From the NCBI GenBank assembly GCA_963744645.1, contig CAVUUN010000024.1, positions 36,325-100,324 on the forward strand: a stretch of 64,000 nucleotides of DNA, read 5' to 3'. Below are positions 55,512-64,000 of this stretch, in pieces. Position numbers and translations under genes: made by a program. The notes beneath the pieces were generated by a model that saw only the letters and a program-made list of their open reading frames with translations, was not told the DNA's origin and ran no database searches. The stretch's first letter is position 1; each line of letters begins with the position of its first letter. The stretch is from an uncultured Acidobacteriota bacterium (GTDB taxonomy: Bacteria; Acidobacteriota; UBA6911; RPQK01).

Positions 55512-56471
55512 TCAGGAGTCAAGAGGACTCTTGACTCCCCGTCCCCCTTGGTTGAGGACGTGTGTATACACCATGGTTGTTGAGACATCCTTGTGGCCGA
55601 GGAGTTCCTGCACGGTGCGGATGTCGTACCCGGATTCAAGGAGATGAGTCGCGAAACTATGACGAAGCGAATGGCAGCTTCCCGCCTTTTCGATTTTGGC
55701 CGCTCGGATAGCTTCAGCGACGGCGCGCTCGAGGGCCGAGGCTCCCACATGGTGCCGACGAACCTGGCCGCTTCTCGGGTCTGCGGATCGCTTCTTGGCC
55801 GGGAACACGTATTGCCAGACCCAGTTGCAGGAGGCGTTCGGGTATTTGCGGTCGAGCGCGTCGGGCATGAACACCTGGCCGTACCCGTCGTTGAGGTCCT
55901 GTTGGTGAAGCAACCTCACCCTTTCAAGATGTTGTTTGAGTGGATCTTCGAGACTTAAGGGCAGGACTGTGACGCGATCAATCTGGCCTTTGCCGTCGCG
56001 CACAACAATCTGGTGATACCCGAAGTCGATATCCTTGACGCGGAGTCGAAGACACTCCATCAGGCGCAGCCCCGATCCGTAGAGCAGGCTGGTCATTAGC
56101 CAGAGAGTACCCTGGAGGTTCAGGAGGATGCGGCGGACCTCATCGCGCGTGAAGACGACCGGCAATCGTTTTGGTTTTTTTGCGCGTACGAGTTGATCTA
56201 GATCGGACAGCGGGCGTTGGAGGACCTTTTCGTACAGGAAGAGTAGCGCCGCCAAAGCCTGGTTCTGGGTCGAGGCGGCCACTTTCCGGTCCACGGCCAA
56301 ATGGGTCAGAAAGGCCGAGACATCTTTTTCGGCCAACGCGGTCGGATGCCTTTTGTTGTGAAAGACGATGAACTGGCGGATCCAGGCGATGTAAGCTTGC
56401 TCGGTCCGGAGGCTGTAGTGCCGGGTACGAATGGCGTTGCGGACCTGGTCCAACAGCTTCGGCTTGTCCAT
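55512..56471 (-). CDS. intI: Integron integrase
   Basis: [27 protein letters not shown], IntI insert [33 protein letters not shown]. Confidence 0.97.
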
Positions 56472-56493
56472 AGGAAGCCCCTCGCCGTATAAT
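56464..56493 (+). promoter_or_regulatory. Candidate cassette promoter Pc
   Basis: TTGTCC-N18-TATAAT spanning the intI start and facing attI. Confidence 0.6.
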
Positions 56494-56554
56494 CTTCGAT
56501 GTCTGTCTGTAAGTCAAAGATAATGAGGATATTAATCCGAAGTCGACGGAATTA

Positions 56555-56612
56555 GTCGGCCTAATCGCCGCAATTAATCACGTCGATTAGGCCGACGAAA
56601 CACAAGTTAGGC
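56555..56612 (+). other. attI site (crossover G|TTAGGC at 56606)
   Basis: First GTTRRRY upstream of intI with no preceding attC; 13-bp inverted repeat just 5' of it. Confidence 0.75.
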
Positions 56613-56803
56613 GGCGCCGAACGCTGAGTTCCTTTGGCCTGAGGGCGGAAAGACAGCAGCCTCAGCCGGAAGCGGTTGCCAATTCGAACTCGGCCGGGGC
56701 AAGATCGAGCCGGCGCGTTCGGGTGTTCCGGGTCGCGGGTGCAAGTTGATTGCCCCCGTGTCTGTTGCTTACCAGACTAACCGGTTCGACCCAGCCAGGC
56801 GCA
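56613..56803 (+). ncRNA. ORF-less cassette 1, candidate structured RNA (type A)
   Basis: No ATG on either strand; several helices; homologous to 61696-61892. Confidence 0.55.
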
Positions 56804-56931
56804 GCCTAACCAGTCGTTGCAGCGGAGCGGCTGGGAGTCGAGCTTCAGCGGGAACGAACCGGTGATAACACGAGTGGCGGCACGGCGCGACTGCTCGGCT
56901 CCAGCCGCCCGCTGAACTTTTTACGTTAGGC
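56804..56931 (+). other. attC1 (alpha subtype)
   Basis: GCCTAAC..TTGCAGCGGA..CCGCTGAAC..GTTAGGC. Confidence 0.92.
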
Positions 56932-56987
56932 AAATTTGCGACCTATCTCTTGACGACATAAAGAGATTCCCTGTTTGGGAGTACGCA

Positions 56988-57443
56988 TTGGATGAGGAAG
57001 ATTGTGAGGGACAGGATGAAGCGACTGTCAGGCCGGTTGAGCCACAGTCTCTTGACTTGGCCCATTTCTCCTACTTCATTCGTGCCAACTTCAGATTGGC
57101 CAACGGAGTCAGCTTCTTGGGATTGGTAACAGTGTCGCGACTGTCGGATGACGGGCTGATTAGCATCGAGGGGGACGAGGATCAGAACGCGGACCGACAG
57201 CCGATCATCATCACCTCCGAAGGGCAAGTGGGTTTCTGGTTCGGAGCGAGGAAACCTAGCGAAGAGGATCTACTTCAGGCCTATTCGCTCCTCGGATCTC
57301 GTGATCCTTTGACTGTTTTCCCTATTCAGTTCAAGACCGAGATTCCGCTTTCGATTTGGGAGGTTCGTGGTGCTATTGCCGGCTTCCTCCACCTGGAAGA
57401 CAAGGAAGACGAATTGAGCTATCGAGTGCGGGTGGCAAAATGA
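56988..57443 (+). CDS. Cassette 2 hypothetical protein (start uncertain)
   Basis: ORF fills the cassette between attC1 and attC2. Confidence 0.7.
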   Translation: MDEEDCEGQDEATVRPVEPQSLDLAHFSYFIRANFRLANGVSFLGLVTVSRLSDDGLISIEGDEDQNADRQPIIITSEGQVGFWFGARKPSEEDLLQAYSLLGSRDPLTVFPIQFKTEIPLSIWEVRGAIAGFLHLEDKEDELSYRVRVAK

Positions 57444-57472
57444 TCCGGGCTCGAAGCTCGGCCCGCCCCGCC

Positions 57473-57599
57473 TCCTAACCCCGCGTTGCAGCGGAGCCGC
57501 TGGGAGCCCCGTTCGCTCCAAAAACCGAGCGGCGCGGTTAGTTTCGGTCCGACCCGTGGTATCCTCCCCAGCGGCCCGCTGAACTTATTGCCGTTAGGC
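57473..57599 (+). other. attC2 (beta subtype)
   Basis: TCCTAAC..GTTAGGC palindrome. Confidence 0.92.
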
Positions 57600-57609
57600 G
57601 GCGAGAGCC

Positions 57610-57981
57610 ATGGACATTCCGTTCACTCACATCTCGGTTGGTGGGGATTTGAGTAACCCTGATGTCCTTATTGCTTTCTCGATCTGGCTTTCGGTCGTAG
57701 CATTACTGACGGTATCGTGGCTCTGGACCATTCGACACTATTTTGGCCCGCATCGTCTGCCGAAGGGCTTCTGGCCGGGTACCCTCGTCCTGCTTGGATT
57801 GATTTCTTTGGTGTCAACCGAATGTTGCTGGCACATCGCGCTGGTTGTGCAAACCGCTAGATTCGGCAAGTACATTGACACCACGTGGTGGGGCTATCCG
57901 CCCATTTGGCCGGTTCCCGCCTCGGCCGTGTCTGTGGGCATTGTCGCGTGGTGGTTCTTCTACAGGTTAAAAGCCGCCTAA
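57610..57981 (+). CDS. Cassette 3 small three-TM membrane protein
   Basis: Stop TAA lies inside the R'' box of attC3. Confidence 0.8.
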   Translation: MDIPFTHISVGGDLSNPDVLIAFSIWLSVVALLTVSWLWTIRHYFGPHRLPKGFWPGTLVLLGLISLVSTECCWHIALVVQTARFGKYIDTTWWGYPPIWPVPASAVSVGIVAWWFFYRLKAA

Positions 57982-58103
57982 CACCGCGTTCCAGCGGAGC
58001 GGCTGGGAGTCGCGCTTCGGTGGGAACGGTCAGGTGACAATATCCTGGGTGGCACGGTGCAGCGTCTCGGCTCCAGCCGCCCGCTGAACTTTTTCCGTTA
58101 GGC
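57976..58103 (+). other. attC3 (alpha subtype)
   Basis: GCCTAAC..GTTAGGC palindrome. Confidence 0.92.
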
Positions 58104-58153
58104 GGCGGCAAGGCCCTCGGAGAACTAAGAGTGGCGAAAACAAAGGAGATCAA

Positions 58154-58620
58154 ATGCTCGGCAAGAGAATCGCGCTAGGTTTCGGCATTGCGGTTGTTTT
58201 CCCAGCCATGGTTCATTTTGGGGTAAGCACTTTTGTTCCTGCCCCAAGAGAAAGGGATTATCAGGTCGAGAGTTACTACGGACGGCACGAAAGGGCGAAC
58301 CCAGAAGAACAGAAGAGCCTGGAAGATGAAGCGCACGCGACTCGAGAAACAGAAGGAGCAGGCGCAACTGAGATTTGAAAAGTACCTCTTCTTCGTTGCT
58401 GTCCCTTTGGGTCTATTTGCCATCATTGTTGGAGCGTTTTTCCGAAGCCACACGATAGGCACGGGCCTTATGTTGGGCGGGATTTTCAGTGCCTGCGACG
58501 GTTACTGGTACTATCGATCAGAATTACCCGATGTTTCTGTGGTTCGCATCAATGGTAATCGCGTTCGTCGTGCTTCTCTTTGTTGGGTACAAAAGGATCG
58601 AAGCGACTGGCGTCTAGCAG
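58154..58620 (+). CDS. Cassette 4 membrane protein; frameshifted, end approximate
   Basis: AGGAG RBS; TM, charged coil, then TMs across 58154..58378 and 58233..58691. Confidence 0.7.
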
Positions 58621-58636
58621 GCCGCGATGCTCCCCC

Positions 58637-58762
58637 GCCTAACCCGGCGTTGCAGCGGAGCGGCCCCGGCTTCCCTCCGGCGGGAAATTAGAGGTGAAAA
58701 ATCGGTTGGTGGCTCAGCGCAACGACTCGGCCGGGCCGCCCGCTGAACTTGTGCCGTTAGGC
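58637..58762 (+). other. attC4 (gamma subtype)
   Basis: GCCTAAC..GTTAGGC palindrome. Confidence 0.92.
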
Positions 58763-58797
58763 GGCTCAAAGGTTCCGAAGGCGGGTTCTAAGCTAAT

Positions 58798-59226
58798 ATG
58801 CAGACGCTGGTCGTTCGGGTACTGACGGCAAGTGTACTTCTCCTGGAAGTTGTCGCTGGTCGCGCGGCCTGGGGAAGAGCGAACTTCCTCTGGCCCACAG
58901 ACCTGAGCAAAACTGCGACTTCTCCGAGTTCAAACCACTAAAAATCACAGCCGAGACCGAACGGATCAAGCAGGTGAGCAAACGCCGATTACCCTGAAGA
59001 CGCGAAGCAGCGAGGAATAGCAGGCCGAGTCGTAGTCAAAGTCCTCGTTGATTCAGACGGCGTAGTCCGAAGAGCCTGCGCTACCAGCGGTCACCGAATG
59101 TTGCGAAGCAGCTGAGAAGGCGGCGCTCAACTCTGCTCTTTCATCCCGTACTTTTGAACCGAAAAGAGGCTCCGCCGGTTTCTCGAGGAGACAATAATCT
59201 TCGACTTCAAACCTGCGGCCAAGTAG
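58798..59226 (+). CDS. Cassette 5: exported TonB C-terminal-domain protein; frameshifted, absent from the ORF track
   Basis: Manual translation YPEDAKQRGIAGRVVVKVLVDSDGVV...SGHRML..AAEKAAL...ETIIFDF. Confidence 0.75.
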
Positions 59227-59236
59227 CGGCCGCACC

Positions 59237-59360
59237 GCCTAACCCCGCGTTCCAGCGGAACGGCCCCGGCGCTGCGACTAGGTGACCAAGAGGTGAAAAC
59301 GCGGCTGGTGGCTCGGGGCAACTGCTCGGCTGTGGCCGCCCGCTGAACTCGACGTTAGGC
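59237..59360 (+). other. attC5 (gamma subtype)
   Basis: GCCTAAC..GTTAGGC palindrome. Confidence 0.92.
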
Positions 59361-59391
59361 GGGCGTCATCCCCGGCCGATATAGTGAAGCC

Positions 59392-59675
59392 GTGAAGCTC
59401 ACGTTCGAATGGGATTCCGAGAAGGCCAGGCAGAATTCCAGCAAGCATGGTGTCACTTTCGAAGAGGCCAGTACCGTATTTGACGACCCGCTTTCGTTGA
59501 CTGTCCCTGACCGAAGGCACTCCGTTCAGGAGCGTCGCTTTGTTATTATTGGCGATCCCAGCCCGGAAGACTGCTCGTCGTGGTTCATACCGATCGCGGT
59601 CGAACTGTTCGGTTGATAAGCGCCCGGCCTGCAACAGGACCTGAACGTAAAGAATATGAAGAAGAAACAAAGTGA
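59392..59675 (+). CDS. brnT: BrnT family toxin (cassette 6); one frameshift
   Basis: FEWDSEKARQNSSKHGVTFEEA..F.DP; LLVVVHTDRG..RLISAR. Confidence 0.9.
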
Positions 59676-59889
59676 GCCAGATCCGGACATGTTGCCGGAG
59701 TACGATTTTTCGGGCGGGGTCCGAGGAAAGTACACAAGCCGGTACCGGGAGGGAACAAACATCGTGGTCTTAGAGCCCGAAATCGCTGAGGTGTTTTCCG
59801 ACTCCCAGTCCGTGAATGATGCCCTTCGCCCGCTGGCTAACCTCATACGACGGCACCGTAAGGGTGCCAAATCGCCCGCCGCCTCCTAA
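59656..59889 (+). CDS. BrnA-like antitoxin
   Basis: DMLPEYDFSGGVRGKY..LEPEIAEVF..SVNDALR; overlaps the toxin gene. Confidence 0.85.
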   Translation: MKKKQSEPDPDMLPEYDFSGGVRGKYTSRYREGTNIVVLEPEIAEVFSDSQSVNDALRPLANLIRRHRKGAKSPAAS

Positions 59890-61298
59890 GAAACTGCAGT
59901 CGTGGCGGGGGTTCCAGAGGCGCTCCGGGGGACCAGTTCATAGCCCAAAGAGCGGGCTTTTTTCTCCAGGTATCGAATCGTTCTCTCCTGATTTTTCTTT
60001 TCGTAGTAATCCAATCGTGTCGGGTCATAGGAGCCGGGATCTGACCAGAGTCGGTAGAAAATCCGCGCCAGCTTGTGAGCGGTGGCGGTGATGGCTTCGG
60101 GGGCGCCGAATCTCGCTTTCATGCGGCGGTAGAAACAGCCGAGCGGTCCCTGGCTGTTGGAGAGGGACTGGGCGGCGAGGCGGAAGGCGCGGGCGGCGCG
60201 ATTGGCGCTGGGGCGGGTCTTGGAGCTTTTGATCTTGCCTCCGGTGATGCGGTTGTCGGGGCACAGGCAGAGCCAGGAGGTGAAGCGCTTGCAGGTGGGG
60301 AAGCGGGAGGGATCCAGTCCGATTTCGGAGATCACGGTCTGGATGGTCAGGGCGTCGAAGCCTTCGATCTGGGTGAAGTCGACGCCGGTGACGCGATACA
60401 TCTCGAGGCGCAGGTCGAAGAGGGTTTGGTTGCGCTGGGGCTTTTTGCTTTTGTTCGATCGGGTGGAGGGAGGCATGGGGACGAGGGCGGGGTCGACCCG
60501 GGAATCCATGCTCTGGAGATAGGCCTGGACCTGCTGGTCGCACTCATCGACCTTGGCGGCGTAGACATCATAAAGCTCAAGGGCCTGGCGCAGGGCGAAC
60601 AGGTGCTCGGGGCGGTAGTCGCCGACCAGGGCCTTGGCGATGGTCTCCCGGGAGGCCTTGATGCGGAAATCGCGCAGGGCGGCCAGCTGCTGCGGATCGC
60701 GCTCTCCGTTGAGAAGGGCGCGGATGATGCGCAGGCCGGTCACGCCGGTGAGGTCGCTGATCACGTGGTGGAGCTGAAGATTCATCTGGACCAGGGCTTT
60801 TTGCATGTGCTGGATGTGGGTGGCTGCGGACTGGATGAGCCGGGAGCGCTGGCGCCAGTAGGAGCGCAGGACGCAGATCTGATCGGCGGGGCGGAAGGAG
60901 GCGGCCAGCAGGCCGTAGGAGTGGAGCTCCTGCAGCCACTGGCAATCCTGGACGTCGGACTTGCGGCCGGGAAGGTTTTTGACGTGGTGGGCGTTGACCA
61001 GGCAGATGTCCAGTCCGTAGGGTTCCAGGATCTGGGCGACCGGGATCCAGTAGACCCCGGTGGATTCCATGGCCACCGAGGTGACGCCGCAGGCCACCAG
61101 CCAGCGGGCCAGGTCGTGGAGGTCCTCGGTGAAGCAGAGGAAGCGTCGGACCGGGTCGGGATCACGATCGGCGGGGACGGCCACGAACAGCTCCTCGGCG
61201 CCGATGTCGATGCCGGCGGTGTTGGGGTTGATCAGGCGTGGGGCGGCCGGGCGATTTTTGCGCGGCTTTCGAATGGATTTGGATTTAGACTTGGACAC
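59886..61298 (-). CDS. IS110 DEDD transposase/recombinase
   Basis: GIDIG, MESTGVYW, KSDVQD, EIG..RF, TATAHKLAR; GTG start with AGGAGG. Confidence 0.95.
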   Translation of the reverse strand: MSKSKSKSIRKPRKNRPAAPRLINPNTAGIDIGAEELFVAVPADRDPDPVRRFLCFTEDLHDLARWLVACGVTSVAMESTGVYWIPVAQILEPYGLDICLVNAHHVKNLPGRKSDVQDCQWLQELHSYGLLAASFRPADQICVLRSYWRQRSRLIQSAATHIQHMQKALVQMNLQLHHVISDLTGVTGLRIIRALLNGERDPQQLAALRDFRIKASRETIAKALVGDYRPEHLFALRQALELYDVYAAKVDECDQQVQAYLQSMDSRVDPALVPMPPSTRSNKSKKPQRNQTLFDLRLEMYRVTGVDFTQIEGFDALTIQTVISEIGLDPSRFPTCKRFTSWLCLCPDNRITGGKIKSSKTRPSANRAARAFRLAAQSLSNSQGPLGCFYRRMKARFGAPEAITATAHKLARIFYRLWSDPGSYDPTRLDYYEKKNQERTIRYLEKKARSLGYELVPRSASGTPATTAVS

Positions 61299-61320
61299 GG
61301 GCGGCCTCCTTTGCAAAAAG

Positions 61321-61485
61321 GCGCGCGCACGGGCCCGGGTCGGTGGATGTACGAAATCTCCTAAACGGGATCGTGTCCGGTGCACGAGACACGTCACCAG
61401 TGCGGAAACCGAAAGCCCCGGGACCAGGCTAACCGACGGGCACGAAAGCACCAATGGCGAAACGGTCTTAACTGCCCGCGCGCGG
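61321..61485 (+). ncRNA. Candidate IS110 bridge RNA, antisense to the transposase
   Basis: Two guide-ACGGG-hairpin-CACCA modules; CTCCTAA matches the target, AGGCTAA matches the donor; closing stem GCGCGC..GGG/CCC.GCGCGC. Confidence 0.7.
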
Positions 61486-61565
61486 CCGCCCAAGACCTTG
61501 CACCGAGTGGCGGGCTGGCCGCAAGTTTCTTTCAGCAGAAATGCGTCCCGAAGGGGCGTTTAAAA

Positions 61566-61695
61566 GGCTAACCCGGCGTTGCAGCGGAGCGGCCCCGGCG
61601 CTGCGACCACTGTTAATTAGTGTGGTAAAAGCATGGCTGGCGCTTCGGGGCGACTACTCGGCTGGGGCCGCCCGCTGAACTTATTGCCGTTAGGC
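61566..61695 (+). other. attC6 (gamma subtype; first bases supplied by the IS end)
   Basis: GGCTAAC..GTTAGGC palindrome. Confidence 0.9.
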
Positions 61696-61892
61696 GGCGC
61701 CGGGGATCGAGTTCGTTGCGGGGCTACGGAGCCGAAAGGCAGCAGCCAAGATCGGGAGGGTTGCTAATTCGAACTCGGTCGGGAGCAGGATCGAGCCGGG
61801 GCCGTCAGGGTGTTTCGGGTCGCGAGCGCAGGCTGGATTGCCTCCGTGTCTGGTGGTTGCCAGACGAAGCGGTTTGATTCAGCCAGGGCGCA
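61696..61892 (+). ncRNA. ORF-less cassette 7, candidate structured RNA (type A, second copy)
   Basis: Homologous to cassette 1 with structure-preserving changes. Confidence 0.55.
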
Positions 61893-62020
61893 GCCTAACA
61901 GATCGTTGCAGCGGAGCGGCTGGGAGCTAAGCTTCGGGGGGGACGGGCAGGTGACAATATCGTGGGTAGCTCGGGGCAACAGCTCGGCTCCAGCCGCCCG
62001 CTGAACTCGGGTCGTTAGGC
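61893..62020 (+). other. attC7 (alpha subtype)
   Basis: GCCTAAC..GTTAGGC palindrome. Confidence 0.92.
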
Positions 62021-62031
62021 GGTGAAGCAGC

Positions 62032-62487
62032 ATGAAACAGCCCTTGCACGAAAGCACTCTGCGTGACTATTTTCTCGGTTTAACGAACGGCGAGTGTCTG
62101 GACGCGCAGACGAGAGCAGCAGTCAAGGTCCGCAGCCGGATCCGGAAGGACGTGCACGTGCGTGACATGGCAGAAGAGTTCCTGGTGACGAGAGCCATGA
62201 TATTGAGGCTATGTCAGGATGCGATCAACGCTCATATCACCGCGGACTCCCTTGAAGATATTGCTTTTGTTCTGCTCGCCTCCGACTCTTTCCACTTTGA
62301 AGAGGAATCGGTGGCTGAAGTGGTACACGATTGGTCGCAACCTAGAGTCAAGTGCGCGCTCACTTCGGAAAACCTCCTGAAGTTTTGTGGTTGGTTGCTC
62401 GGAAACAGCGCGTACCCAGCCCACGAAACACCACCAGCTGAGGTGACGGGAACCGTGGTCAGCGTTAAGCGTAAGGTGGTTGACTAA
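62032..62487 (+). CDS. Cassette 8 hypothetical protein
   Basis: ORF fills the cassette exactly. Confidence 0.8.
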   Translation: MKQPLHESTLRDYFLGLTNGECLDAQTRAAVKVRSRIRKDVHVRDMAEEFLVTRAMILRLCQDAINAHITADSLEDIAFVLLASDSFHFEEESVAEVVHDWSQPRVKCALTSENLLKFCGWLLGNSAYPAHETPPAEVTGTVVSVKRKVVD

Positions 62488-62491
62488 GGCT

Positions 62492-62585
62492 GCCTAACAC
62501 GCGTTGCAGCGGACCCGCCCTCGCGCTTCTTGCATTGATCATCTGGTGGTGAGGCCCGGGCGGGCCGCTGAACTTCACGTTAGGC
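62492..62585 (+). other. attC8 (short, 94 bp)
   Basis: GCCTAAC..GTTAGGC palindrome. Confidence 0.9.
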
Positions 62586-62756
62586 TGCCAAGGGCGAAAG
62601 AGAAAGTGGGCGAAAGCAGTTGCAGCGGTGTGGGCGCAAGCGAGCCAGGGGGAAACCGGGCGAGATTCAGTCAGCGCGGTGCCCGGCCAACAACTTGCTC
62701 GCCCAGGTTGGTTGCCCGGTGCGTGGCCGATTTGCGTTCGATTGTGCACGCGGGCA
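62586..62756 (+). ncRNA. ORF-less cassette 9, candidate structured RNA (type B)
   Basis: No ATG on either strand; GGGCGCAAG/TTTGCGTTC and CCGGGCGA/TTGCCCGG helices. Confidence 0.45.
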
Positions 62757-62885
62757 GCCTAACACGTCGTTCCAGCGGAGCGGCTGGGAGTCGCGCTTCG
62801 GTGGGAACGAAGAGGTGACAGCATCGTGGGTGGCAGGGTGCAGCTACTCGGCTCCAGCCGCCCGCTGAACTCTGTGCCGTTAGGC
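62757..62885 (+). other. attC9 (alpha subtype)
   Basis: GCCTAAC..GTTAGGC palindrome. Confidence 0.92.
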
Positions 62886-62913
62886 GGCTCAACGTCTGAG
62901 AGTCGGTGTCCAA

Positions 62914-63357
62914 GTGATCATGAGGCGGAAGATTCTCCTCGGCTCTTCCATTGTAGCTATTCTTGCTACCGTTGCCTTTCTGGTCCTCGTGCCAGCCGCC
63001 CGTGCTGAACTGTGCTGGGACTGCCCTTTGAGCTTCGAACAAGCGTCGATGATACTGGCAGCGATCTTCATATTCTTGATGTTAGGCACTTGGCTTCGAG
63101 GGAGCAGCAAGTGGCAACTTCACGCGCTTGGCAACATTCTGCTCGGCGTCGCAGCTCTCTACATTTGGGTCATCCATCATGCGGGCCGGGAGTGGGGAAT
63201 CAGTAAATTCAATAATCCCCACGAGGGGTATGATCCCAACATAGTCTCGGTGTTTGCCCTGGCATTGCTCATCGTGTGTGCAGGATTCGTCACGCTTTTT
63301 GGCAGGCGATCGTCTTCGCTCGGCGCTGAAGGGGCCAACAGCAGAACAGCCGCCTAA
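62914..63357 (+). CDS. Cassette 10 membrane protein (signal plus about three TMs, CWDC motif)
   Basis: Stop codon lies inside the R'' box of attC10. Confidence 0.8.
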   Translation: MIMRRKILLGSSIVAILATVAFLVLVPAARAELCWDCPLSFEQASMILAAIFIFLMLGTWLRGSSKWQLHALGNILLGVAALYIWVIHHAGREWGISKFNNPHEGYDPNIVSVFALALLIVCAGFVTLFGRRSSSLGAEGANSRTAA

Positions 63358-63479
63358 CCCGGCGTTCCAGCGGACCCGCTGGGAGTGGCGGCTCGCTCGG
63401 AAATTGAGGCGGCGCGGTCAATCCCGACCCGACCCATGGTATCCTCCCCAGCGGACCGCTGAACTTGTGGCCGTTAGGC
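63352..63479 (+). other. attC10 (beta subtype)
   Basis: GCCTAAC..GTTAGGC palindrome. Confidence 0.92.
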
Positions 63480-63496
63480 GGCGGCGAGGTGACGAC

Positions 63497-64000
63497 ATGG
63501 TCAAACCTAAGAGAAAGAAAGACAAGGAGGGAGAGTGCGTCGTCCCTTCTCATGCGCTACCCGCGAACGAGCTTGATAAATACAGCGTATTCCGCGATCC
63601 GCACACTGAGCTGGACATTGCCCGTTATGTCGAGATAGAAGCGCCCGACGAAAAGGTCCTGCACGCAGAGAGGATCAAACAGGAGATAGTATTGGGCGAT
63701 GTATACGACATATGGGATGTGACCACAAACAAGGACCGTTGGTGGGTCATCACAAACCTTACCAATCTCTATTCGCAACGGCATTTTCCGAGCTTGGATT
63801 ACACACTTTCGTTCCACATAGGGCTGATGATGCGGCTACGAAGCCGCAATGACGGCGCTCGAAGTGAGGAACCTAGTCCGTTCGATGAGGTTTTCAGACG
63901 CCAACAGCAGGCCGACGACCGCCATGAAAGTGCGGTGGAAGCGGAGGACTACCAAGCTGTTGGCATGCAACTTCGCGAATGCCTGATTTCTCTTGTCAGC
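63497..64000 (+). CDS. Cassette 11 hypothetical protein; early frameshift, runs off the window
   Basis: GAGGTG RBS; manual translation WDVTTNKDRWWVITNLTNLYSQ..LSFHIGLM..EDYQAVGMQLRECL. Confidence 0.7.
   Translation, partial: MVKPKRKKDKEGECVVPSHALPANELDKYSVFRDPHTELDIARYVEIEAPDEKVLHAERIKQEIVLGDVYDIWDVTTNKDRWWVITNLTNLYSQRHFPSLDYTLSFHIGLMMRLRSRNDGARSEEPSPFDEVFRRQQQADDRHESAVEAEDYQAVGMQLRECLISLVS

What the first reader, a model, noticed from the sequence alone, without database searches (positions are those of the whole stretch)
61299..61571. IS110 non-coding end carries guides for its target and donor: candidate bridge RNA aimed at integron attC, antisense to the transposase
Seen: two modules of the form [guide]-ACGGG-[hairpin]-CACCA. 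The first guide, CTCCTAA (61358-64), equals the target left flank plus core (59883-89). The second, AGGCTAA (61426-32), equals the IS end plus core (61565-71), the left half of the predicted circle junction AAAGG-CTAA-GAAAC. Established: IS621-type bridge RNAs have a target loop followed by a donor loop, with 5' guides identical to the left half-site plus core. That layout fits only the + strand, which also has the GAAA loops and a terminator-like hairpin at 61543-61561. Inference: a divergently transcribed bridge RNA. I could not assign the right-hand guides with confidence.
Basis: partly seen in the sequence, partly recalled or inferred. Interest (0 to 1): 0.8.

Follow-up and report, generated by a model that had tools for sequence, protein, structure and literature searches.

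The report
Bridge RNA, but on transposase strand
The non-coding end of this IS110-family insertion sequence does encode a guide ("bridge") RNA that aims the element at integron attC sites, but the evidence places it on the same strand as the transposase, as in known members, so it is a new member of a known kind.

Summary
The two 7-mers and the "[guide]-ACGGG-hairpin-CACCA" modules are real and sit where stated. Both modules are conserved upstream of related transposases: 102 regex hits in 99 of 146 sources, 76 unique. The guide segments track each element's own junctions.

The reading needs two corrections.

1. **Strand.** Consensus folding, G-U versus A-C counts, tetraloops and the ends of 171-180-nt contigs from RNA libraries all favour the minus (transposase) strand.
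2. **Core.** The shared core is the dinucleotide CT on the plus strand (AG in transposase sense), not CTAA. It is the only dinucleotide kept in both loops and both junctions.

With that core, the variable loop (61427-61436) copies the attC half-site plus core plus two bases of the IS tip, so it is the target guide. The conserved loop (61358-61364) copies the IS right end plus core, so it is the donor guide.

The sense RNA then follows the published guide polarity (identical to the left half plus core, core at the 3' end). I saw the same polarity in an IS1111-type comparator.

The guides for the right halves were not found. No stranded RNA data were available.

Verdict: an ordinary sense-strand bridge RNA of an IS110-family clade that inserts into the attC R'' box.

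The parts
59883..59884 (.). Core dinucleotide CT (AG in transposase sense) at the left junction of the window. The flank to its left is the end of the upstream cassette.
   Evidence: Junction registers of 49 elements. Positions 7-8 of both loops are identical in 71 of 76 unique sequences.
59885..61567 (-). The IS110-family insertion sequence as re-bounded here. Which of the two CT copies belongs to the element is arbitrary.
   Evidence: Removing it restores GCCGC-CT-AACCCGG, the commonest attC R'' form in this genome (CCGCC before TAAC in 19 of 41 sites).
59886..61298 (-). Transposase gene. GTG start at 61298, 470 aa, TAG stop at 59886-59888, inside the last bases of the element.
   Evidence: ORF. 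(PF01548 6.5e-16, PF02371 8.9e-10). (NF033542, 232.5 bits against a cut-off of 140).
59883..59889 (-). Donor left half-site: right end of the IS plus core (sense TTAGG-AG). It is copied in the loop of module 2.
59888..59895 (.). Right arm of a subterminal inverted repeat (sense AGTTTCTT).
   Evidence: In 37 of 40 elements, the reverse complement of the right end matches an interior motif of the left end over at least 7 nt. Own mean 7.75 against 5.12 for mismatched pairs.
61524..61531 (.). Left arm of the subterminal inverted repeat (sense AAGAAACT). It lies outside the RNA seen in the contigs.
61314..61486 (-). Candidate bridge RNA, about 173-180 nt: terminal stem P0, module 1, module 2 and a UUUUU tail. 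The ribosome-binding site of the transposase follows directly.
   Evidence: RNA-library contigs at 61306-61485, 61315-61484 and 61314-61486 with 2-3 differences, from 3 runs of 2 studies. Fold. Family alignment.
61463..61467 (-). P1 5' arm (sense GACCG), which closes module 1.
61422..61426 (-). P1 3' arm (sense UGGUC).
61437..61453 (-). Inner hairpin of module 1 (sense UGGUG...CCCG).
   Evidence: C-G in 12 and U-A in 11 of 24 sequences at the variable pair. CG 36, TA 34 of 76.
61427..61436 (-). 3' strand of the module-1 loop, read as the target guide. Sense U-CGGUU-AG-CC is the attC left half (GGTT), then core AG, then the first 2 bases of the IS left tip (a handshake-like extension; the matching third base, U, is the first base of the P1 3' arm at 61426).
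   Evidence: (mismatch at position 9 in 3 of 90 sites, position 10 in 21 of 90).
61454..61462 (-). 5' strand of the module-1 loop (sense UUUCGCCAU), where a right-target guide would be expected. None was detected.
   Evidence: no signal above mismatched controls.
61366..61399 (-). Inner hairpin of module 2 (sense UGGUGA...AUCCCG). Its length varies across the family.
61358..61364 (-). 3' strand of the module-2 loop, read as the donor guide. Sense UUAGG-AG is the IS right end plus core.
   Evidence: (mismatches almost only at positions 9-10).
61568..61695 (+). The interrupted attC site from its R'' box onward. CT at 61568-61569 is the core; AAC... continues the R'' box; R' (GTTAGGC) lies near 61689.
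   Evidence: repeat families D2-D6..

Best explanation
**What it is.** A 1.68-kb IS110-family insertion sequence sits in the R'' box (GCCTAAC) of an attC site of a chromosomal integron cassette array. Its 270-nt left end lies upstream of the transposase and on the same strand. That end encodes a bridge RNA of about 175 nt.

**RNA layout (transposase sense).** A long terminal stem encloses two internal-loop modules. Each module has the form: outer stem, 5' loop strand, UGGUG-hairpin-CCCG, 3' loop strand, outer stem. In each module the 3' loop strand reads U, then five bases identical to the left half-site, then the core AG.
- Module 1 varies between relatives. Here it copies the attC bases GGTT plus AG, then two to three bases of the IS left tip. 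It selects the target.
- Module 2 is conserved. It copies the IS right end TTAGG plus AG. It recognises the donor junction.

**How it would work.** Pairing would be with the bottom strand of each left half-site, with the core at the 3' end of the guide. This is the polarity published for IS621.

**Shown here:** the family-wide match of each loop to its own junction, the shared core, the conserved sense-strand structure, and RNA-library contigs that span exactly this structure.

**Inferred:** binding to the transposase, recombination through a circular intermediate, and how the right half-sites are recognised.
For: 1. **Protein.** DEDD_Tnp_IS110 plus Transposase_20, and NCBIfam 'IS110 family RNA-guided transposase'.
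2. **Context.** attC repeats flank the element. The other copies in the same genome lie in attC arrays.
3. **Conservation.** nhmmer finds the non-coding end upstream of relatives. The modules are in 99 of 146 sources, 76 unique.
4. **Guides.** The loop-to-junction matches exceed mismatched controls: 8.67 against 4.79, and 7.41 against 4.89. The reverse complements give nothing.
5. **Core.** Positions 7-8 are AG/AG in 68 and AA/AA in 3 of 76 unique sequences. The same dinucleotide is in both junctions.
6. **Target loop.** Relatives whose left junction lies in an A-run next to coding sequence of an IS3-type transposase carry A-run module-1 loops (L050, L155, L072). For L155, intact copies of the flanking IS3-family sequence align up to the last A before the element's own sequence starts, and an intact copy reads TTAAAAAAAG. 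That right half does not resemble the module-2 loop.
7. **Strand.**
   - RNAalifold: -8.34 and -12.14 in sense, -2.73 and -3.81 in antisense.
   - P1: 41 G-U against 2 A-C cells, in many clusters.
   - P0 and the module-2 hairpin fold better in sense than their shuffles predict (p = 3e-6 and 1e-5).
   - Tetraloops: 11 against 1.
8. **RNA.** Three RNA-library runs from two studies each hold a 171-180-nt contig covering 61306/61314/61315 to 61484-61486 at 98-99% identity. In sense this is a 13-bp terminal stem plus UUUUU.
9. **Polarity.**
   - Durrant 2024: passages read.
   - IS1111-type comparator: an element with an empty site has a guide complementary to core plus right half on the 5' strand.
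   - The same comparator has a guide identical to left half plus core right after the inner hairpin on the 3' strand. That is the placement seen here.
Against: - No stranded RNA data: contigs carry no strand, and the tool itself rates shared contig ends as a weak hint.
- The outer stem of module 2 gives no strand preference. Duplex energy is better in sense in 33 sequences and in antisense in 41. At helix ends there are 25 G-U against 21 A-C.
- Two substitutions in the close relative L076 and in the RNA contigs (plus-strand C>T at 61417, and TGGTC to TAGTC in P1) would be wobble pairs only on the plus strand.
- Guide-to-site mismatches inside the module-1 guide are 3 sense-type wobbles against 8 antisense-type, out of 22. 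Some of those sites are mis-registered.
- Guides for the right half-sites were sought and not found, so half of the expected bridge-RNA recognition is unaccounted for.
- No sigma-70-type promoter was found on either strand, or across the predicted circle junctions of 40 elements.
- A U-tract after the terminal stem is present in only 18 of 76 relatives.
Confidence: 0.8

Rival explanations
1. The bridge RNA is transcribed from the plus strand, divergently from the transposase. The target loop (CTCCTAA) comes first, the donor loop (AGGCTAA) second, and the core is CTAA.
For: - With a CTAA core, the plus-strand RNA has the IS621 order and polarity.
- A few substitutions and guide mismatches are wobble-compatible only on the plus strand.
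Against: - Consensus folding on the plus strand is poor: SCI 0.25 and 0.08, against 0.68 and 0.25 in sense.
- P1 would carry A-C mismatches in 41 of 152 cells.
- No terminator is called at 61543-61561, and no promoter was found.
- The RNA contigs would end in GC-rich sequence without a U-tract and start with an A-run.
- CTAA is not conserved as a core across the family; only the dinucleotide at loop positions 7-8 is.
- It would require all relatives in very different hosts to share nearly the same target, TTAG(G/A)AG.
Confidence: 0.07
2. The sense-strand RNA is the bridge RNA, but with the reader's boundaries (crossover inside TTAG in sense). Its guides would then be identical to core plus the right half-sites, the mirror image of the published polarity.
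For: - The window's junctions alone allow a 4-nt overlap.
- Intact attC sites with CTCCTAAC exist: 3 of 41.
- In every element the loop matches begin at the position next to the last base of the right end.
Against: - It needs a guide geometry opposite to IS621 and to the IS1111-type comparator analysed here.
- The empty IS3-family site next to L155 matches the module-1 loop on its left half and has nothing like the module-2 loop on its right half.
- Co-variation of AG/AG and AA/AA at positions 7-8 marks that dinucleotide as the core.
Confidence: 0.05
3. Both strands are transcribed. The sense RNA is the guide and the leader of the transposase mRNA. A plus-strand RNA complementary to it acts as a regulator, as proposed for Asr9 and Asr10.
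For: - Precedent in ISPpu9 and ISPpu10.
- Contigs cannot exclude plus-strand transcripts.
Against: - No promoter-like site on the plus strand here or in the enterobacterial relative.
- No conserved plus-strand structure.
- Nothing in the data calls for it.
Confidence: 0.08

Closest known systems
IS621-type bridge RNA of the IS110 group (Durrant et al. 2024, PMC11208160; passages read)
   Same: - It is encoded in the long left end, upstream of and on the same strand as a DEDD recombinase.
- It is about 175 nt.
- It has two internal-loop modules, the first variable (target) and the second conserved (donor).
- Its guides are identical to the left half-site plus a 2-nt core, with the core at the 3' end.
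- It has a 2-nt extension that matches the partner DNA, like a handshake guide.
   Different: - The left guides sit on the 3' strand of each loop, not the 5' strand.
- Guides for the right halves were not detectable.
- The core is AG (or AA), not CT, in the element's own frame.
- The transposase is 470 aa (the range given for the family in the paper is about 300-460).
- There is an 8-nt subterminal inverted repeat whose left arm lies about 40 nt inside the left end.
- Rfam 15 gave no match.
IS1111-type seekRNA / bridge RNA (Siddiquee et al. 2024, PMC11187229; abstract and sections 6, 9, 10, 12, 13 read)
   Same: - The guide that is identical to the top-strand left half plus core lies on the 3' strand, directly after the inner hairpin. 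I saw this in the comparator L158/L159/L162.
- Subterminal inverted repeats are present.
- Some members target attC (ISKpn4, ISPst6, ISPa25).
   Different: - The non-coding region is upstream of the transposase gene, not downstream.
- The transposase is 470 aa rather than 330-350.
- The insertion point is in the R'' box.
- The IS1111-attC targets listed in PMC13604230 (table seen) lie in a different part of attC.
Asr9/Asr10 antisense small RNAs of ISPpu9/ISPpu10 (PMC12288879)
   Same: They are RNAs made from the region just upstream of an IS110-family transposase gene, on the opposite strand.
   Different: They are described as regulators of translation or processing, not as guides. No evidence for such a transcript was found here.

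Membership tests
IS110-family bridge RNA system | Adjacent DEDD (RuvC-like) plus Tnp-domain recombinase | tested here: met
   PF01548 and PF02371. NF033542 at 232.5 bits, cut-off 140.
IS110-family bridge RNA system | Long non-coding end holding a conserved structured RNA with two internal loops | tested here: met
   Alignments and RNAalifold. Compensatory changes in P1 and in both hairpins.
IS110-family bridge RNA system | One loop carries a guide matching the target, the other a guide matching the donor junction, varying with them across relatives | tested here: met
   Own against mismatched controls. Register table. A-run module-1 loops in relatives whose left junction lies in an A-run next to an IS3-type transposase.
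IS110-family bridge RNA system | A core dinucleotide shared by target, donor and both loops | tested here: met
   AG/AG in 68 and AA/AA in 3 of 76 unique sequences. 5 are discordant, of which at least 4 look mis-registered.
IS110-family bridge RNA system | Second guide in each loop pairing with the opposite strand of the right half-site | tested here: inconclusive
   No match or co-variation above controls for the 5' loop strands against any half-site.
IS110-family bridge RNA system | RNA is expressed from the transposase strand and binds the recombinase | tested here: inconclusive
   RNA-library contigs span the structure but carry no strand. Binding is not testable with these tools.
IS110-family bridge RNA system | Circular intermediate with a junction promoter | tested here: inconclusive
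   No sigma-70 consensus across the predicted junctions of 40 elements. The hosts are diverse, so a negative result means little.
IS1111-attC group | IS1111-type transposase (330-350 aa) with the non-coding region downstream | tested here: not met
   470 aa; non-coding region upstream; the stop codon lies within the last bases of the element.

The most novel reading that the evidence does not exclude
This clade may use a simplified bridge RNA. Each DNA partner would be read by a single guide strand: five bases of the left half-site plus the 2-nt core, with a 2-nt handshake in the target loop. The right halves would be recognised without RNA pairing, perhaps through the subterminal inverted repeat and protein contacts. 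The clade would also combine an IS110-type layout (upstream RNA, long transposase) with an IS1111-type placement of the guide on the 3' strand.
Probability: 0.25. Interest if true: 0.55.

Novelty: new member of a known kind. Interest (0 to 1): 0.4.

Why it matters
**Integrons.**
- It shows how an IS110-type element can home in on integron cassette arrays. A 6-7-nt guide reads the conserved R'' box of attC.
- This is an RNA-guided route to attC that differs in transposase type and layout, and apparently in insertion point, from the known IS1111-attC group.

**Bridge recombinases.**
- It adds a widespread clade. Relatives were found in 64 genome loci, 311 metagenome stretches and 410 plasmid records, including enterobacterial plasmids.
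- In this clade the target loop and donor loop can be read directly from the sequence.
- Its guide placement is intermediate between the two described types.

**Method.** A mis-set core length can flip the inferred strand and swap the target and donor labels of a bridge RNA.

Tried and rejected
- **Rfam 15** at E up to 10: only two chance-level matches.
- **Single-sequence folding:** uninformative. z = -0.99 and -0.64 for the whole end. MFE was better in sense in 16 of 24 sequences.
- **Folding with G-U forbidden:** noisy structures.
- **Duplex-energy test for P1:** no better than shuffles, so P1 rests on the position-specific counts.
- **Hairpin at the IS tip:** folds better on the plus strand in 27 of 40, but shuffles show the same bias (p = 0.45).
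- **Promoter scans:** nothing on either strand or across predicted circle junctions.
- **U-tract after the terminal stem:** not general, 18 of 76.
- **Right-hand guides:** common-string and column-by-column tests against left flank, right flank, right end and left tip all stayed at control level.
- **Wobble test on guide-to-site mismatches:** too few informative positions.
- **Sequencing runs:** the RNA runs are contigs only, holding 0.05-0.08 of the sampled words. They give no strand and no expression level.
- **Earlier findings of the scan:** nothing relevant.
- **Other IS110-family genes of the same genome**: useful only as queries to reach the IS1111-type comparator.
- **Supplements of the papers are closed.** The covariance models and Extended Data figure 10c of Durrant 2024, and the ISfinder-wide tables of Siddiquee 2024, may already contain this clade. 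I could not check.

Full report
**What is there**

The minus strand of 59886-61298 encodes a 470-aa protein with a GTG start and a ribosome-binding site at 61303-61312. It carries the two IS110 domains and matches NCBIfam 'IS110 family RNA-guided transposase'.

The element sits in a cassette array. At least ten repeats of about 130 nt in 56000-64000 begin with GCCTAAC and end with GTTAGGC, which are attC sites. The cassette to the left carries a BrnT-family toxin gene.

The genome holding the window has other copies, all in attC arrays:
- a second full copy at 95% identity;
- a copy truncated at its left (non-coding) end;
- a 209-nt remnant of the non-coding end.

**The observation**

Each 7-mer is rare in the window (4 and 6 matches on both strands).

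**The family**

Transposase relatives were found in three collections:
- 64 genome loci;
- 311 metagenome stretches, of which 80 were kept;
- 410 plasmid records.

nhmmer finds the non-coding end upstream of many of them. A regex for the two modules hits 102 times in 99 of 146 sources, giving 76 unique sequences.

Written in transposase sense, each module reads: outer stem, 5' loop strand, UGGUG-hairpin-CCCG, 3' loop strand, outer stem. A further stem (P0) encloses both modules.

**The guides are real**

I used the 49 of the 76 unique elements that have both flanks.

| Loop strand | Compared with | Own element | Mismatched pairs |
|---|---|---|---|
| Module 1, 3' strand | own left junction | 8.67 nt | 4.79 nt |
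| Module 2, 3' strand | own right junction | 7.41 nt | 4.89 nt |

The values are mean longest common strings. The reverse complements give no signal.

Mismatches fall almost only at positions 9-10 for module 2, and at positions 10-11 for module 1.

**Which strand**

| Test | Sense (minus) | Antisense (plus) |
|---|---|---|
| RNAalifold, module 1 | -8.34 kcal/mol, SCI 0.68, P1 predicted | -2.73, SCI 0.25, P1 lost |
| RNAalifold, whole region | -12.14 | -3.81 |
| P1, two variable pairs | 41 G-U cells | 2 A-C cells in sense (= G-U in antisense) |
| GNRA/UNCG tetraloops in the two hairpins | 11 | 1 |

- At P1 position 0 the counts are GC 39, GU 20, AU 12, AC 0. At position 1 they are AU 37, GU 21, CG 9, GC 3, UA 3, AC 1, CA 1.
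- The G-U states occur in 13 and 11 of 42 sequence clusters.
- P0 and the module-2 hairpin fold better in sense than composition explains. The sense-minus-antisense difference is -1.51 and -1.34 kcal/mol, against -0.08 and -0.15 for shuffles.
- The outer stem of module 2 is neutral.

*RNA-library contigs.* Three metatranscriptome runs from two studies each contain one short contig that lies wholly inside the non-coding end:
- 61306-61485 (contig of 180 nt);
- 61315-61484 (171 nt);
- 61314-61486 (179 nt).

Each has 2-3 differences from the window. Folded in sense, 61314-61486 is a 13-bp GC-rich terminal stem that encloses both modules and is followed by UUUUU. In antisense it would begin with an A-run and end without a U-tract. 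Contigs carry no strand, so this is a hint, not proof.

**The core, and why the labels change**

On the sense strand that gave guides identical to core plus the right half-site, the mirror image of the published rule.

The published rule is this. [quoted passage not shown] The core is included in each (Durrant 2024).

I checked that rule on an IS1111-type element from enterobacterial plasmids that has an empty site. Its sense RNA has TTATTGTAC, complementary to core plus right half, on the 5' strand. It has CTTAACG, identical to left half plus core, directly after the inner hairpin on the 3' strand. So the polarity is shared by both described types.

Four points resolve the conflict:
- Positions 7-8 of the 3' strand are the only positions kept in both loops and both junctions. 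They change together: AG/AG in 68 and AA/AA in 3 of 76. By eye they are also AA/AA in L155 and L072. That is the signature of the core.
- With core AG in sense (CT on the plus strand), each loop reads U, then five bases of the left half-site, then the core. This is the canonical polarity, on the same loop strand as in the IS1111-type comparator.
- Module 1 is variable and becomes the target loop. Module 2 is conserved (TTTAGGAG or TTTAGAAG across very different hosts) and becomes the donor loop. This matches the conservation pattern described for IS621.
- In the window, the empty site then becomes GCCGC-CT-AACCCGG, the commonest R'' form. CCGCC precedes TAAC in 19 of 41 sites.

*Independent check.* The enterobacterial relative L155 lies in an IS3-family transposase gene. 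Intact copies of that gene align with its left flank up to the last A of an A-run, exactly where the element's own sequence begins. The intact site reads TTAAAAAAAG. Its left half matches the module-1 loop (TAAAAAAACA). Its right half has nothing like the module-2 loop (TTCAGGAAG).

In this window the target guide is sense GGUU-AG followed by CC(U), which matches the first bases of the IS left tip. That extension is kept across the family: mismatch at position 9 in 3 of 90 sites, and at position 10 in 21 of 90. It resembles the 2-nt handshake guides mentioned for IS621 (passage).

**What remains open**

- No guide for either right half-site was found on the 5' loop strands.
- An 8-nt motif inside the left end (61524-61531) is the reverse complement of the subterminal right end in 37 of 40 elements. 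It lies outside the RNA seen in the contigs. I read it as a subterminal inverted repeat.
- No promoter was identified.
- A few substitutions in close relatives would be wobble pairs only on the plus strand.
- Antisense small RNAs do exist in other IS110-family elements, as regulators. A plus-strand transcript is therefore not excluded.

**Literature**

| Paper | What I read |
|---|---|
| PMC11208160 | passages |
| PMC11187229 | abstract; sections 6, 9, 10, 12, 13; passages |
| PMC12288879 | passages; section 16 |
| PMC13604230 | passages, including its table 1 |
| PMC13626964 | passages |
| bioRxiv 10.64898/2026.10.21.760802 | passages |
| bioRxiv 10.1101/2025.10.25.684509 | outline and abstract |
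| bioRxiv 10.1101/2024.06.21.599552 | term search only, no hits |

A search for 'bridge RNA', 'IS110' and 'antisense' together returned 15 papers. Judging from the 12 titles and abstracts listed, none describes an antisense-encoded bridge RNA. I read only two of them, in passages.

**Verdict**

This is a correct detection of guide-bearing modules in an IS110-family non-coding end. The RNA is most likely the ordinary sense-strand bridge RNA.

Noticed in passing
L075:20-345 (metagenome relative, 93% aa identity): The attC flank runs straight into the 3' part of module 1. About 140 nt of the left end are missing, between two copies of the same 9-nt string. One copy is the left junction; the other is the DNA that encodes the target guide. 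Every integrated copy carries this direct repeat by design, so the guide-encoding DNA looks like a built-in site for internal deletion.
   Followed up: partly
L155 (Citrobacter plasmid), L072, L050, L041: A sub-group of the family has core AA and an A-run target loop. For L155, L072 and L050 the left junction lies in an A-run at or near the slippery A-run of IS3-type transposase coding sequence. For L041 only the loops were read. Transposases about 50% identical to the window's occur in many enterobacterial plasmids (61 Citrobacter records among 410 plasmid hits).
   Followed up: partly
window 59886-59888: The transposase stop codon TAG lies in the last seven bases of the element. It overlaps the donor half-site copied in the module-2 loop, so the coding sequence and the recombination site share bases. 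Several relatives show the same arrangement (GTTTCT TAG).
   Followed up: no
window 59819-59889 and G000:C14 near 978507: The two full copies share an identical flank of more than 70 nt on the cassette side, but continue into different attC sequences on the other side (CCCGG against CCAGG, then divergent). This suggests duplication or recombination of cassette plus IS rather than two independent insertions.
   Followed up: no
window 59392-59889: The cassette left of the IS encodes a BrnT-family toxin (PF04365, 5.3e-16), followed by a 77-aa ORF with no Pfam match. It is probably a toxin-antitoxin cassette.
   Followed up: no
L026 and L055: Two module sets per locus. One element lies directly against the end of another copy, as a nested or tandem insertion.
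   Followed up: no
window 61404, 61417, 61446: The RNA-library contigs and the relative L076 share the same three substitutions. The expressed environmental variant is therefore a close relative, not this exact copy.
   Followed up: partly
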